This document shows, one piece after another, positions 22,421 to 61,470 of a stretch of DNA of 64,000 nucleotides (the stretch's first letter is position 1; every line of letters begins with the position of its first letter). Below the pieces are notes generated by a model. It saw nothing but the letters and a program-made list of their open reading frames with translations, ran no database searches and was not told the origin of the DNA. Location of the stretch: assembly GCA_951406725.2 (NCBI GenBank), contig OX597833.1:42594001-42658000 (forward strand). The letters run 5' to 3'. The position numbers and the translations under genes were made by a program. The DNA is from Octopus vulgaris (lineage: Eukaryota).

Positions 22421-22490
22421 ATGGCACACAAATCTTTGGCATTGGTGATGCTTATGATTTCAGTTCTGAATCCGGTCGTGAAATCTCAAA
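22421..22490 (+). CDS. Coding exon 1: signal peptide [23 protein letters not shown]
   Basis: Acceptor ttttcag at 22409, ATG in aaaATGG context, basic N-region plus hydrophobic core, donor GTAAGT in phase 1. Confidence 0.85.
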
Positions 22491-61400: not shown

Positions 61401-61470
61401 AATATTACCTGTCAGACAAGGGATGTCGAAGGCAAGCTTCACTCCGTCAGCCATGACTTGCTGACACACA
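22421..61470 (+). CDS. Multi-exon gene (18 coding exons in window, 3' incomplete): signal peptide + 5 cadherin repeats + Ig-like domain
   Basis: All junctions are GT-AG with compatible phases and join into one 2125-nt open frame. Cadherin motifs (xE, DxD, LDYE, AxDG, DxNDxPP.F) recur in register. Confidence 0.92.
22896..23130. repeat. Long imperfect inverted repeat (arms ~105 bp, loop ~28 bp)
   Basis: GGATGACCT.TAAGTGGACATCCATTATGCTAGAAG... pairs with its reverse complement. Confidence 0.85.
23760..23837 (+). CDS. Exon 2: start of EC1 ([26 protein letters not shown])
   Basis: Acceptor tttttccag, donor G|GTAATT, phase 1-1, FxVxE motif. Confidence 0.85.
25308..25633 (-). mobile_element. tRNA-derived SINE, full length
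   Basis: A box TGGCTTAGTGG, B box GAGTTCGATCCC; perfect 13-bp TSD GGAATTAACATAT. Confidence 0.9.
26057..26205 (+). CDS. Exon 3: EC1 ([10 protein letters not shown]...[10 protein letters not shown])
   Basis: Acceptor ctttcag, phase 1-0, LDYE motif, donor GAG|GTATTT. Confidence 0.9.
26233..26661. mobile_element. GG-terminal MITE carrying (CCCTAA)n, copy 1
   Basis: 24-bp TIRs GGATCTTTTC.GTTTGAACGGCAG; near 8-bp TSD ATTATCA(A/T). Confidence 0.85.
27340..27810 (-). mobile_element. R4/Dong/NeSL-like retrotransposon, RLE endonuclease C-terminal fragment
   Basis: KHNR(P>S)DIVVWD...SCP.D...K...Y..L...IIIGALG motif series, with stops and frameshifts. Confidence 0.8.
27990..28049 (+). CDS. Exon 4: EC1 ([20 protein letters not shown])
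   Basis: Poly-T acceptor, donor GTAAGT, YxLxIxAxD motif. Confidence 0.9.
28356..28398 (+). ncRNA. Type I hammerhead ribozyme-like motif (Penelope-associated type)
   Basis: aactgc-CTGATGA-acagaaaccgt-GAAA-ctctca-GTA-gcagtt: complete core, 6-bp stem I, short stems II and III. Confidence 0.7.
28675..28752 (-). ncRNA. Type I hammerhead-like motif with long stem II
   Basis: Reverse strand: tccta-CTGACGA-[stem II]-GAA-ACTGATCAGT(palindrome)-C-tggga. The base of stem II is imperfect. Confidence 0.55.
28976..29021 (-). ncRNA. Type I hammerhead-like motif (U4C variant)
   Basis: Reverse strand: aaaactgt-CCGACGA-acg ggaa cgt-GAAA-ctctga-GTA-acagtttt. Confidence 0.65.
29550..29963. mobile_element. GG-terminal MITE carrying (CCCTAA)n, copy 2
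   Basis: Same TIRs; perfect 8-bp TSD AGGTTACT (29542-29549 and 29964-29971). Confidence 0.88.
30569..30661 (+). CDS. Exon 5: EC1/EC2 linker ([19 protein letters not shown]...IKE)
   Basis: tttcacag / GTAAGT, xxND.xP.F linker motif. Confidence 0.92.
30737..31157 (+). mobile_element. SINE family B dimer
   Basis: Two body units; TSD TATGCCTAGT (30723-30732 and 31158-31167). Confidence 0.88.
31328..31992 (-). mobile_element. SINE family B trimer
   Basis: Three ~216-bp units; 16-bp TSD AGAGGGAACAAATATT. Confidence 0.9.
32413..32511 (+). CDS. Exon 6: EC2 ([33 protein letters not shown])
   Basis: Acceptor ctctttcag, DxDxGxN motif. Donor GTTGGT is weaker and was chosen for phase 0 compatibility. 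Confidence 0.82.
33001..33216. mobile_element. Mariner-type MITE
   Basis: About 30-bp TIRs (TT(T/G)GGTTGTCCG..AAGTTCGTGCCGATTT), TA flanks. Confidence 0.8.
33510..33638 (+). CDS. Exon 7: EC2 (FQSSCDYF...[24 protein letters not shown])
   Basis: tttgcag / GTAAGT; aligns with exons 10, 13 and 16. Confidence 0.9.
34132..34236 (+). CDS. Exon 8: EC2/EC3 linker ([24 protein letters not shown]...ISE)
   Basis: ttgcag / [15 protein letters not shown] motif. Confidence 0.93.
35880..36150. mobile_element. pogo/Tigger-like MITE
   Basis: TIR core CCTCCTCGACTTACGA / TCGTAAGTCGAGGAGG, inserted in (TA)n. Confidence 0.65.
36273..36588. repeat. Long imperfect palindrome (arms ~150 bp, loop ~12 bp)
   Basis: GGACGTCACCAACTGTGTAAAC...CTACTCCTCATTT versus AAATGAGGAGTAG...GTTTACACAGTTGGTGACGTCC. 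Confidence 0.88.
37047..37154 (+). CDS. Exon 9: EC3 ([36 protein letters not shown])
   Basis: tttcacag / GTAAGG, DxD motif. Confidence 0.9.
39609..40023 (+). mobile_element. SINE family B dimer
   Basis: One head, two bodies, near-TSD TATATTTTATTA.CA. Confidence 0.85.
40126..40748. repeat. 310-bp tandem duplication within a retroelement relic
   Basis: Units start at 40126 and 40436 and differ by only a handful of substitutions. Confidence 0.92.
41230..41324 (+). pseudogene. U6: U6 snRNA retrocopy, 5'-truncated
   Basis: Near-identical to metazoan U6 from CAG(C>T)ACATATAC through ACAGAGA...GCGTTCCATATTTTT with about 4 substitutions. Lacks the first ~13 nt and shows no upstream Pol III promoter. 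Confidence 0.93.
41640..41774 (+). CDS. Exon 10: EC3 (DPCTIFQI...[15 protein letters not shown]...LLAT)
   Basis: atttcag / GTATGT, LDYE motif. Confidence 0.93.
43606..44204 (+). mobile_element. SINE family B trimer
   Basis: B box repeated at 43680, 43864 and 44048 (184-bp period); TSD ending ATATATACAGGGTG. Confidence 0.88.
44222..44430. mobile_element. Tc1/mariner-type MITE
   Basis: Imperfect TIRs CA(G/C)GGTGT..CAGAA...GCG.ACCA with TA flanks. Confidence 0.6.
44636..44737 (+). CDS. Exon 11: EC3/EC4 linker ([24 protein letters not shown]...IKE)
   Basis: atttcag / GTAAGA, DSNDEPP.F motif. Confidence 0.93.
45103..45485 (+). mobile_element. Helitron-like element with the same 3' end and a different interior
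   Basis: A|TC start; the last ~65 nt are identical to 4290-4355. Confidence 0.78.
45905..46200 (-). mobile_element. RTE-clade LINE 3' end with C-terminal C2H2 fingers
   Basis: [16 protein letters not shown] and [19 protein letters not shown] followed by a stop and a short tail; flanked by microsatellites. Confidence 0.6.
46753..46863 (+). CDS. Exon 12: EC4 ([37 protein letters not shown])
   Basis: ttacag / GTACGT, ENAKPGT and DxD motifs. Confidence 0.92.
47459..48800. mobile_element. R4/Dong-like fragments and two related tails next to (TAA)n
   Basis: PDWL....TYLL.K.......NY.P.TC (RT N-terminal region); ~47470-47900 and ~48410-48790 are homologous and both abut TAA repeats. Confidence 0.6.
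48896..49036 (+). CDS. Exon 13: EC4 (YKIACETF...[20 protein letters not shown])
   Basis: atttcag / GTAAGT, LNYE motif. Confidence 0.92.
50207..50630 (-). mobile_element. tRNA-derived SINE family A, full copy (others at ~331-490+, 2097-2862-, 5386-5935-, 7787-8193+, 13638-14053-, 24220-24535-, 54233-54695-, partials at 12121, 21160, 44830, 49860)
   Basis: A box TGGCTGTGTGG, B box GGTTCAGTCCC, central microsatellite, tail ...CATGGCCGCAGTCAAATGACTGAAACAAGTAAAAG; many similar copies in the window. Confidence 0.9.
50982..51176. repeat. (GTC)n/(ATC)n trinucleotide microsatellite
   Basis: Direct inspection. Confidence 0.95.
51188..51292 (+). CDS. Exon 14: EC4/EC5 linker ([24 protein letters not shown]...LSM)
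   Basis: ttctacag / GTAAGT, canonical DVNDNPP.F. Confidence 0.93.
53107..53830 (-). mobile_element. Mariner (DD34D) relic
   Basis: [18 protein letters not shown]-terminus and HPPYS.DL.PS..YLFP motif; frameshifted and deleted. Confidence 0.85.
53895..54185 (-). mobile_element. RTE-clade LINE ORF C-terminus
   Basis: [15 protein letters not shown]...RR...EEL...G.SW......A.N...W motif. Confidence 0.7.
54899..55003 (+). CDS. Exon 15: EC5 ([35 protein letters not shown])
   Basis: Poly-T acceptor, donor CAG|GTGACT, AxDxD motif. Confidence 0.9.
56358..56501 (+). CDS. Exon 16: EC5 ([10 protein letters not shown]...[16 protein letters not shown]...LMAY)
   Basis: aaacag / GTAAGT; aligns with exons 7, 10 and 13. 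Confidence 0.88.
56727..56784 (+). CDS. Exon 17: end of EC5 ([19 protein letters not shown]), phase 0-1
   Basis: tttacag / GTAAGT, starts with DG like exons 8, 11 and 14 but has no DxND linker. Confidence 0.88.
57270..57800 (-). mobile_element. Penelope-like element, GIY-YIG endonuclease relic
   Basis: CIYQC...FYIGST...KRI..H...F....RNST.LS..IW.LK and C.L...E pattern. Confidence 0.8.
58602..58862 (+). mobile_element. tRNA-derived SINE family C (related heads at 3533-3820-, 19191-19345+, 22655-22710-)
   Basis: tRNA-like head TGGCC(T/C)AGTGGTTAG.GCAGCGG.CTCGCGG shared among the copies. Confidence 0.75.
59392..59880. mobile_element. TcMar/pogo-like MITE
   Basis: TIRs CCGTAA(A/G)TCCTCG, TA flanks, repeated subterminal GTATAATACGCA-like motif. 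Confidence 0.75.
61138..61470 (+). CDS. Exon 18: immunoglobulin-like domain (111 aa, phase 1-1)
   Basis: ttgcag / GTAAGT, 333 nt open frame. VTVKC...LSFKI...ITC with the two Cys 73 residues apart; the C-strand Trp is absent. Confidence 0.78.

What the first reader, a model, noticed from the sequence alone, without database searches (positions are those of the whole stretch)
22421..61470. Hidden cadherin-immunoglobulin hybrid cell-surface protein
Seen: 18 small exons, mostly invisible in the ORF track, splice into signal peptide + EC1-EC5 + a 111-aa domain with Ig-like Cys spacing (73 aa) and beta-strand patterning. EC5 has lost its downstream Ca2+ ligands (xE>SM, no DxND), as expected of the last EC before a non-cadherin module. 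Known: classical cadherins follow their ECs with EGF/LamG or a TM segment, protocadherins with a TM segment, and Ret with a Cys-rich domain. I know of no well-characterised bilaterian family with EC x5 followed by Ig. Inference: a lineage-specific receptor or adhesion molecule joining the two main adhesion folds. The TM and cytoplasmic part (kinase, phosphatase or other) lies beyond the window.
Basis: partly seen in the sequence, partly recalled or inferred. Interest (0 to 1): 0.85.

Follow-up and report, generated by a model that had tools for sequence, protein, structure and literature searches.

The report
Octopus cadherin-immunoglobulin hybrid, likely lipid-anchored
This is a real, spliced octopus gene that joins five cadherin repeats to predicted immunoglobulin domains; its complete relatives end in a likely lipid (GPI) anchor signal rather than a signalling tail, so it is likely a cell-surface adhesion or recognition protein of an unusual design.

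Summary
I rebuilt the same 18 exons independently (2125 nt, 708 aa, no stop). The gene matches Octopus vulgaris/O. sinensis records and an 87%-identical O. bimaculoides protein, mostly auto-named 'protocadherin Fat 4-like'. In 3 of 4 laid runs a single ~3-kb contig joins exon 17 to exon 18. The exon-18 model matches Ig domains, chiefly V-set (Z up to 8.9).

The guess of a TM segment plus kinase or phosphatase is not supported. Two more Ig-like domains follow exon 18. Complete homologs (970-971 aa, about 40% identical per domain) end in a GPI-signal-like hydrophobic tail with no cytoplasmic part. The Octopus contigs run on 804-895 nt after exon 18; such an end needs 774 nt.

New here: EC2-EC5 look like four tandem copies of the cysteine-loop EC2 of mollusc Cad87A-like cadherins (tree support 98/91), each on the same three phase-0 exons.

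Best reading: signal peptide-5EC-V-C2-C2-GPI adhesion/recognition protein built by exon shuffling. The Octopus C-terminus, tissue and binding partner were not seen. It is a new architecture made of known parts.

The parts
22421..22490 (+). Exon 1 (coding part): ATG and signal peptide, ends in phase 1; an acceptor at 22410 implies an upstream UTR exon
   Evidence: only hydrophobic peak of the 708-aa model
23760..23837 (+). Exon 2: start of EC1, phase 1-1
26057..26205 (+). Exon 3: EC1 middle with LDYE motif
27990..28049 (+). Exon 4: EC1 late strand (in O. sinensis and O. bimaculoides models, skipped in the O. vulgaris model)
30569..30661 (+). Exon 5: EC1-EC2 linker
32413..32511 (+). Exon 6: EC2 first half with first loop Cys; weak donor GTTGGT, used by all three Octopus models
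33510..33638 (+). Exon 7: EC2 second half with second loop Cys and Trp motif; LDRE-type motif lost
34132..34236 (+). Exon 8: EC2-EC3 linker
37047..37154 (+). Exon 9: EC3 first half
41640..41774 (+). Exon 10: EC3 second half with LDYE
44636..44737 (+). Exon 11: EC3-EC4 linker
46753..46863 (+). Exon 12: EC4 first half
48896..49036 (+). Exon 13: EC4 second half with LNYE
51188..51292 (+). Exon 14: EC4-EC5 linker; EC5 xE replaced by SM at its end
54899..55003 (+). Exon 15: EC5 first half
56358..56501 (+). Exon 16: EC5 second half
56727..56784 (+). Exon 17: last strand of EC5, no DxNDN, ends in phase 1; its last 30 nt are the loose end before exon 18 in three contigs
61138..61470 (+). Exon 18: one V-set-like Ig domain, phase 1-1, Cys616/Cys689 plus a conserved extra Cys682, no Trp; spliced on to an exon outside the window that starts a second Ig-like domain

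Best explanation
The window holds the first 18 coding exons of a spliced Octopus gene for a signal peptide, five cadherin repeats and a predicted V-set Ig domain; two more likely Ig domains and a likely GPI anchor follow outside the window, so the product is likely a lipid-anchored, calcium-stiffened adhesion or recognition protein without a signalling tail of its own. How it would work (inferred): calcium at the EC1-2, EC3-4 and EC4-5 linkers stiffens the EC rod; the EC2-3 linker is partly degenerate and EC5-Ig binds no calcium, giving hinges. The EC tip would bind itself or a Cad87A-like partner on a facing cell, while the V-C2-C2 stalk adds reach and perhaps a second, calcium-independent binding face. 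Any signal would pass through raft partners, and phospholipase could shed the protein, as for T-cadherin and IgLONs. How it arose (inferred): a phase-1 cadherin cassette (exons 2-17) came to lie between a signal-peptide exon and a phase-1 Ig exon, and the three-exon EC2 unit of a Cad87A-like gene was copied to four.
For: Shown: exon chain and splice signals; exon 17-18 join and onward splice in 3 of 4 runs; a second Ig-like domain after exon 18 in three Octopus models. Predicted: exon-18 model pLDDT 75, eight strands; listed PDB matches are antibody/TCR V domains, CD166, amphioxus IgVJ-C2, P0, B7, nectins, Z 7.7-8.9, no cadherin among the 50 rows; Atlas V-set hits 0.91-0.93. Complete homologs P0124, P0145, P0146 have the same domain order, 36-44% identity per EC and 37-39% in Ig1; each EC position pairs with its Octopus counterpart; a genomic ORF in the P0145 cluster ends where exon 18 ends. 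They end in small residues, a spacer and a hydrophobic tail, best omega candidate 25 residues from the end, the pattern described in PMC2571997. They need 774 nt after the Ig1 exon; the Octopus contigs have 895, 805 and 804 nt. Origin: 16 of 16 family EC2-EC5 have a Cad87A-like EC2 as best outside hit; the Cys-pair/Trp motif is in 23 of 136 ECs, exactly these 16 plus 7 such EC2s; clade support SH-aLRT 99 and 98/91; intron phases 1,1,0x14,1,1.
Against: The Octopus C-terminus itself was not seen: the three named models end at 825, 842 and 438 aa without a hydrophobic tail, probably by running into introns or wrong last exons, which I could not check. Contigs can break anywhere, so their length is only a hint. 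No GPI predictor was run; 3 of 96 other long proteins in hand also pass my crude tail test. Ig2 and Ig3 were not folded: they rest on Cys patterns, a sub-threshold Pfam C2-set hit (17.7 vs 21 bits) and Atlas scores of 0.88-0.91. Exon 18 has no Pfam Ig hit, lacks the Ig core Trp, and its Z-scores are middling. The organisms of the complete homologs are not given, so they may be paralogs. Adhesion, tissue and partner are untested. EC1 does not group with Cad87A-like EC1 with support, and the comparison proteins were picked as hits to this gene.
Confidence: 0.6

Rival explanations
1. One reading: a single-pass receptor with a cytoplasmic kinase or phosphatase beyond the window (Ret- or Cad96Ca-like).
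For: The Octopus 3' end is outside the window and unseen; the named models are incomplete.
Against: Complete homologs with the same domain order stop after a hydrophobic tail, last charged residue 17-21 from the end. The three contigs run only 804-895 nt past exon 18, of which two Ig domains would take about 660 nt.
Confidence: 0.08
2. Same GPI architecture, but the job is immune or microbe recognition at an epithelial surface: a fast-evolving V-type Ig on a cadherin scaffold rather than cell-cell adhesion.
For: V-C2 arrangement like B7, CD200R and amphioxus IgVJ-C2; identity to the complete homologs is only 25-44% per domain.
Against: The V domain is capped by five ECs instead of sitting at the tip; 87-91% identity in Ig1-2 between Octopus species; no paralog expansion seen; calcium motifs kept at three linkers.
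Confidence: 0.15
3. In Octopus the protein is secreted (matrix, mucus or cuticle component) and has lost the anchor.
For: None of the three named Octopus models has a C-terminal hydrophobic stretch; 16 N-glycosylation sequons in 708 aa.
Against: The three models end at three different places; the O. bimaculoides end looks like intron read-through, since a genomic ORF of the same exon ends likewise; homologs keep the tail.
Confidence: 0.1
4. The hydrophobic tail is an uncleaved membrane anchor with no cytoplasmic part, not a GPI signal.
For: GPI signals and terminal TM helices are hard to tell apart by sequence (passage in PMC10084454); 19-residue hydropathy 1.56-1.68.
Against: No basic stop-transfer residues after the tail; small-residue omega candidates at the expected distance in both sequence types.
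Confidence: 0.06
5. Artefact: two neighbouring genes (a cadherin and an Ig gene) fused by annotation.
For: O. sinensis RefSeq splits the locus in two models.
Against: That split falls in EC4, not at the EC-Ig border; single contigs join exon 17 to 18 in three studies and carry 1760-1823 nt upstream against 1792 nt of upstream CDS; distant homologs are single ORFs on ~3-kb contigs.
Confidence: 0.01

Closest known systems
Cad87A-like cadherins of molluscs (e.g. Elysia GFS25353.1, O. sinensis XP_036356531.1, Lottia XP_009062013.1)
   Same: Their EC2 carries the same Cys-pair loop and Trp motif and forms one clade with EC2-EC5 of this protein.
   Different: They have about 14 different ECs and a TM-like segment and only one such EC; no Ig domains; EC1 here is not clearly theirs.
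T-cadherin (CDH13), vertebrates
   Same: Five ECs, GPI anchor, no cytoplasmic domain (PMC12902817, passages).
   Different: T-cadherin has a prodomain and no Ig domains; nothing here shows kinship, so this would be convergence.
IgLON / DIP / Wirin family; nectin and B7-type V-C2(-C2) ectodomains
   Same: Three Ig domains plus GPI in IgLONs (PMC10084454, passages); exon 18 folds like nectin, B7 and CD200R V domains.
   Different: No cadherin repeats in these; no sequence link found; Ig1 lacks the core Trp and the Ig region has 12 Cys.
Long cadherins with an Ig domain after the ECs (unnamed P0007, P0012, P0023; hedgling-type proteins of sponges and cnidarians, Ig content recalled, not confirmed)
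   Same: EC repeats followed by an Ig domain.
   Different: 9-12 or more canonical ECs and one ordinary I-set-type Ig that Pfam detects; not five Cys-loop ECs with three divergent Ig domains.
Protocadherin Fat 4 / octopus protocadherins (the database label)
   Same: Only generic EC similarity.
   Different: Five ECs on 16 small exons; no large ectodomain exon as in octopus clustered protocadherins; no EGF/LamG; no TM in homologs.

Membership tests
Cadherin superfamily | Two or more tandem EC repeats | tested here: met
   Pfam PF00028 above cut-off on P0002, P0124, P0145; five repeats by own HMM
Cadherin superfamily | Calcium-binding motifs (xE, LDRE-type, DxNDN, DxD, AxD) at EC linkers | tested here: met
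   Kept at EC1-2 and EC3-4, D>N at EC4-5, LDRE-type motif lost in Octopus EC2, downstream set lost in EC5; calcium binding itself untested
Immunoglobulin superfamily, V-set (exon 18) | Ig beta-sandwich fold | tested here: met
   Model pLDDT 75; Foldseek and VIA-align rows are Ig domains, chiefly V-set, Z up to 8.9, rmsd 3.2 over 99 residues
Immunoglobulin superfamily, V-set (exon 18) | B-F strand Cys pair 55-75 residues apart | tested here: met
   Cys616 and Cys689, invariant in 5 of 5 aligned sequences
Immunoglobulin superfamily, V-set (exon 18) | Core Trp in strand C and a Pfam V-set match | tested here: not met
   No Trp in exon 18; no Ig family at E<=1. A divergent Ig-fold domain, not a canonical V-set member
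Immunoglobulin superfamily, C2-set (domains after exon 18) | Ig fold of domains 2 and 3 | tested here: inconclusive
   Pfam C2-set_2 17.7 bits, under the 21-bit cut-off; Atlas 0.88-0.91 to IgSF clusters; not folded
GPI-anchored proteins | Small-residue omega region, spacer, hydrophobic tail to the C-terminus, no cytoplasmic part | tested here: inconclusive
   Met by hand in homologs P0124, P0145, P0146; the Octopus C-terminus lies outside the window and was not seen; no predictor run
T-cadherin (CDH13) | Prodomain + 5 EC directly followed by GPI, no Ig | tested here: not met
   EC1 starts at aa ~32, right after the signal peptide; Ig domains follow EC5
Cad87A-like cadherins | About 14 ECs followed by TM and cytoplasmic tail | tested here: not met
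   Five ECs then Ig; only the EC2 type is shared
Protocadherins / Fat4 | 6-7 ECs (or >30 ECs with EGF/LamG, recalled) then TM | tested here: not met
   Five ECs on 16 exons; no TM in complete homologs
Ret / Cad96Ca receptor kinases | TM helix and cytoplasmic kinase | tested here: not met
   Absent from complete homologs; for Octopus itself only the contig-length hint
IgLON / Wirin | Sequence kinship of the three Ig domains | tested here: inconclusive
   No IgLON-type hit; these searches miss distant kin (one search missed even the Octopus ortholog)
Adhesion molecules | Homophilic or heterophilic trans binding | not testable with these tools

The most novel reading that the evidence does not exclude
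A cephalopod invention: a GPI-anchored chimera in which a Cad87A-derived cadherin cassette was shuffled into a V-C2-C2-GPI immunoglobulin gene and its disulfide-loop EC2 was multiplied to four, putting a calcium-dependent cadherin tip and a calcium-independent V-type Ig face on one rod. It would be a T-cadherin and an IgLON in one chain, reached independently of vertebrates.
Probability: 0.35. Interest if true: 0.75.

Novelty: new variant of a known kind. Interest (0 to 1): 0.55.

Why it matters
Cephalopod cadherin work has centred on protocadherin expansions. This gene hides under the label 'protocadherin Fat 4-like', its Ig domains escape Pfam, and the named models I saw are split or incomplete. 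If GPI anchoring holds, it is an invertebrate five-EC GPI cadherin convergent with T-cadherin and fused to an IgLON-like stalk, and an unusually readable case of exon shuffling (phase-1 cassette, three-exon unit copied four times). It is directly testable with cDNA, PI-PLC and aggregation assays. It changes no general rule, and its biological role is not known.

Tried and rejected
Single exons against Pfam: 0 of 14 gave a cadherin or Ig match; they are too short or divergent. Exon 18 against PDB sequences: one chance hit, E 0.52. No whole genome is held, so the next exons could not be read. No run is on record as RNA (the tool guesses RNA); run X13 gave no cover of exon 18, which says nothing. 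JGI metagenome contigs: 190 pattern matches, none confirmed. Viral fold library: only generic Ig-like matches. Earlier findings: none by place, words or sequence. Literature: ten searches found no description of this gene or architecture; its accessions gave 0 papers. The O. bimaculoides genome paper was not held, and Wang and Ragsdale 2017 (cited) was not seen; their cadherin lists and supplements could include this gene. No supplements were read. Rejected: fused-gene artefact, Fat4/protocadherin membership, Ret-like kinase (reasons above). Absence outside cephalopods is not shown: only 3 of 18 hits reach past query residue 150, but one search missed even the Octopus ortholog.
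Full report
Observation. The window is AT-rich, microsatellite-laden eukaryotic DNA. They join to 2125 nt, 708 codons, no stop. All 17 acceptors are CAG and 12 of 18 donors GTAAG, against 24% and 1.7% in the background.

Identity. Exon 18 found two proteins among 99 candidates, and their clusters hold four named records. 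O. vulgaris CAI9737719.1 is identical at 688 of 688 aligned residues but skips exon 4. O. sinensis has the locus as two models, XP_029647763.1 (413 of 415 identical, ends in EC4) and XP_029647764.1 (from the EC4-EC5 linker on). O. bimaculoides XP_014774135.1 is 87% identical over 709 residues and holds all 18 exons. The window is thus from the O. vulgaris/O. sinensis pair; I cannot tell which. Three of the four are labelled 'protocadherin Fat 4(-like)'.

Splicing. I laid 4 of the 23 listed runs on 60600-61580. In X1, X2 and X8, from three studies, one contig each (3033, 2898, 2960 nt) covers exactly 61138-61470 with 0-1 differences. The loose end before it is window 56755-56784, the end of exon 17. 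The loose end behind it is not in the window and encodes the residues that follow exon 18 in the named models. X13 gave no cover. The tool only guesses that these runs are RNA and no DNA run was laid, but the contigs lack the 4.35-kb intron. They carry 1805, 1760 and 1823 nt upstream of exon 18, against 1792 nt of upstream CDS, and 895, 805 and 804 nt downstream.

Domains. My own EC profile finds five repeats; Pfam passes Cadherin on the full proteins but on none of 14 single exons. Calcium motifs are kept at EC1-2 and EC3-4, nearly so at EC4-5; Octopus EC2 has lost its LDRE-type motif and EC5 its whole downstream set. Exon 18, folded from a 5-sequence alignment, gave pLDDT 75.3, pTM 0.67 and eight strands. 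The listed Foldseek and VIA-align rows are Ig domains, chiefly V-set: antibody and TCR variable domains, CD166, amphioxus IgVJ-C2, P0, B7, nectins, CD200R (best Z 8.9, rmsd 3.2, 99 aligned). Those Z values are middling, but no cadherin is among the 50 rows. The Atlas gives mollusc and cnidarian unnamed clusters at 0.94-0.95, then V-set at 0.93. The domain has the 73-residue Cys pair and a third conserved Cys, but no Trp, so it is a divergent Ig-fold domain.

What lies beyond the window. The Octopus models instead continue into a second and, in O. sinensis, part of a third Cys-bearing domain. A search with the O. bimaculoides protein (173 hits among 8000 candidates, 120 listed) gave one full-length relative, unnamed P0005, 35% identical over 92%. 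Its cluster mate P0124 (971 aa; 8 contigs up to 3153 nt) and P0145/P0146 (970 aa; 51 and 38 contigs; P0145 is 77% identical to P0124) are complete. Their only hydrophobic peaks are at the two ends. They end in small residues, a short spacer and a 17-21-residue uncharged tail, with a best omega candidate 25 residues from the end, the layout given for GPI signals in PMC2571997 (passages). Three of 96 other long proteins in hand passed the same crude tail test, so it is not proof. After the Ig1 exon these homologs need 774 nt, which fits the Octopus contigs. The two later domains look C2-set-like (Pfam 17.7 bits, under cut-off; Atlas 0.88-0.91; motifs) but were not folded. The homologs' organisms are not given. 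They are 36-44% identical per EC, pair with the Octopus protein domain by domain, and share the intron at the end of exon 18, so they are orthologs or close paralogs.

Origin. EC2-EC5 each carry a Cys pair followed by a Phe and a Trp/Tyr-x-Gly/Thr strand. Among 136 ECs cut from 18 proteins, this motif occurs in 23: the 16 family EC2-EC5 and the EC2 of 7 of 7 Cad87A-like proteins (Elysia, Octopus, Lottia, Bulinus and three unnamed). All 16 have such an EC2 as best outside hit. The 23 form one clade (SH-aLRT 99, quick tree); a careful tree of 36 ECs gives 98/91 for the same group. Each repeat sits on three phase-0 exons of similar length, and exons 2-17 as a block, and exon 18, are bounded by phase-1 introns. 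I infer tandem copying of one three-exon EC2 unit and shuffling of the cadherin block onto an Ig stalk. Caveats: EC1 is not placed with support, branches are long, a shared insertion can pull sequences together, and the comparison proteins were chosen as hits to this gene.

Mechanism. Shown: a spliced gene with signal peptide, five ECs and a domain predicted to have a V-type Ig fold. [quoted passage not shown] Inferred from family knowledge: calcium stiffens three of the four EC linkers; the EC tip binds in trans; the Ig stalk adds reach or a second binding face; signalling, if any, needs a co-receptor. Overall confidence 0.6. Rivals: immune/microbe recognition (0.15), secreted in Octopus (0.10), TM plus enzyme (0.08), uncleaved tail anchor (0.06), fused models (0.01).

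Known relatives and novelty. It belongs to the cadherin superfamily and works, by inference, like T-cadherin (five ECs plus GPI; PMC12902817, passages) and like IgLONs (three Ig plus GPI; PMC10084454, passages), but fails the defining architecture of each, and of Cad87A-like, protocadherin, Fat4 and Ret-type proteins. EC followed by Ig is not unique: P0007, P0012 and P0023 have an Ig match after 9-12 ECs. The Ig part is narrow in range: 3 of 18 hits among 1.84 billion representatives reach past query residue 150, though such searches miss distant kin. Ten literature searches found no description. I saw passages only of PMC6339937, PMC10734073, PMC4054682, PMC5620054, PMC13218726 and PMC7656900, none mentioning such a protein in the passages shown; PMC2447487 gave no passage. 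The octopus genome paper and the Wang and Ragsdale cadherin review were not seen, nor any supplements; they could list the gene.

Verdict. Observation confirmed; interpretation partly supported, with the C-terminal guess replaced by two more Ig-like domains and a likely GPI anchor. A new variant of a known kind: a new arrangement of known adhesion modules with a traceable origin. Interest 0.55.

Noticed in passing
window 41213-41323 +: Full-length U6 snRNA match (RF00026, 96.3 bits) inside intron 9, with a divergent 5' end; gene copy or pseudogene.
   Followed up: partly
window 27990-28049 +: The O. vulgaris model skips exon 4, removing 20 residues of EC1; annotation slip or a splice variant. 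Contig lengths cannot decide.
   Followed up: partly
window 12984-13010 +: The O. vulgaris model starts with 9 residues from an upstream exon here, ahead of the signal peptide; likely a UTR exon read as coding.
   Followed up: partly
window 60633-60929: A dispersed repeat in intron 17 is hit by many divergent contigs in all four laid runs; it inflates the word shares.
   Followed up: no
window 739-1179 -, 20033-20770 -: Broken ORFs that look like Tc1/mariner transposase remnants (resemblance recalled, not tested).
   Followed up: no
window 57270-57713 -: ORF fragment in intron 17 resembling a GIY-YIG endonuclease of a Penelope-type element (resemblance recalled, not tested).
   Followed up: no
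window 32511-32517: Exon 6 uses a weak donor (GTTGGT), yet all three Octopus models use it.
   Followed up: partly
proteins P0007, P0012, P0023: Unnamed long cadherins with an I-set-type Ig match right after 9-12 ECs: a separate EC-Ig architecture.
   Followed up: partly
protein P0140 (O. sinensis cadherin-87A-like isoform X3): This isoform ends in a hydrophobic stretch unlike isoforms X2 and X9; probably a modelling product.
   Followed up: no
protein P0005: Its last seven residues differ from P0124 and look like a translated sequencing adapter (recalled), so it is truncated inside the tail.
   Followed up: partly
proteins P0124/P0145, residues 595-940: The Ig region has 12 conserved Cys, six more than three canonical pairs need; inter-domain disulfides are likely but were not modelled.
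   Followed up: no
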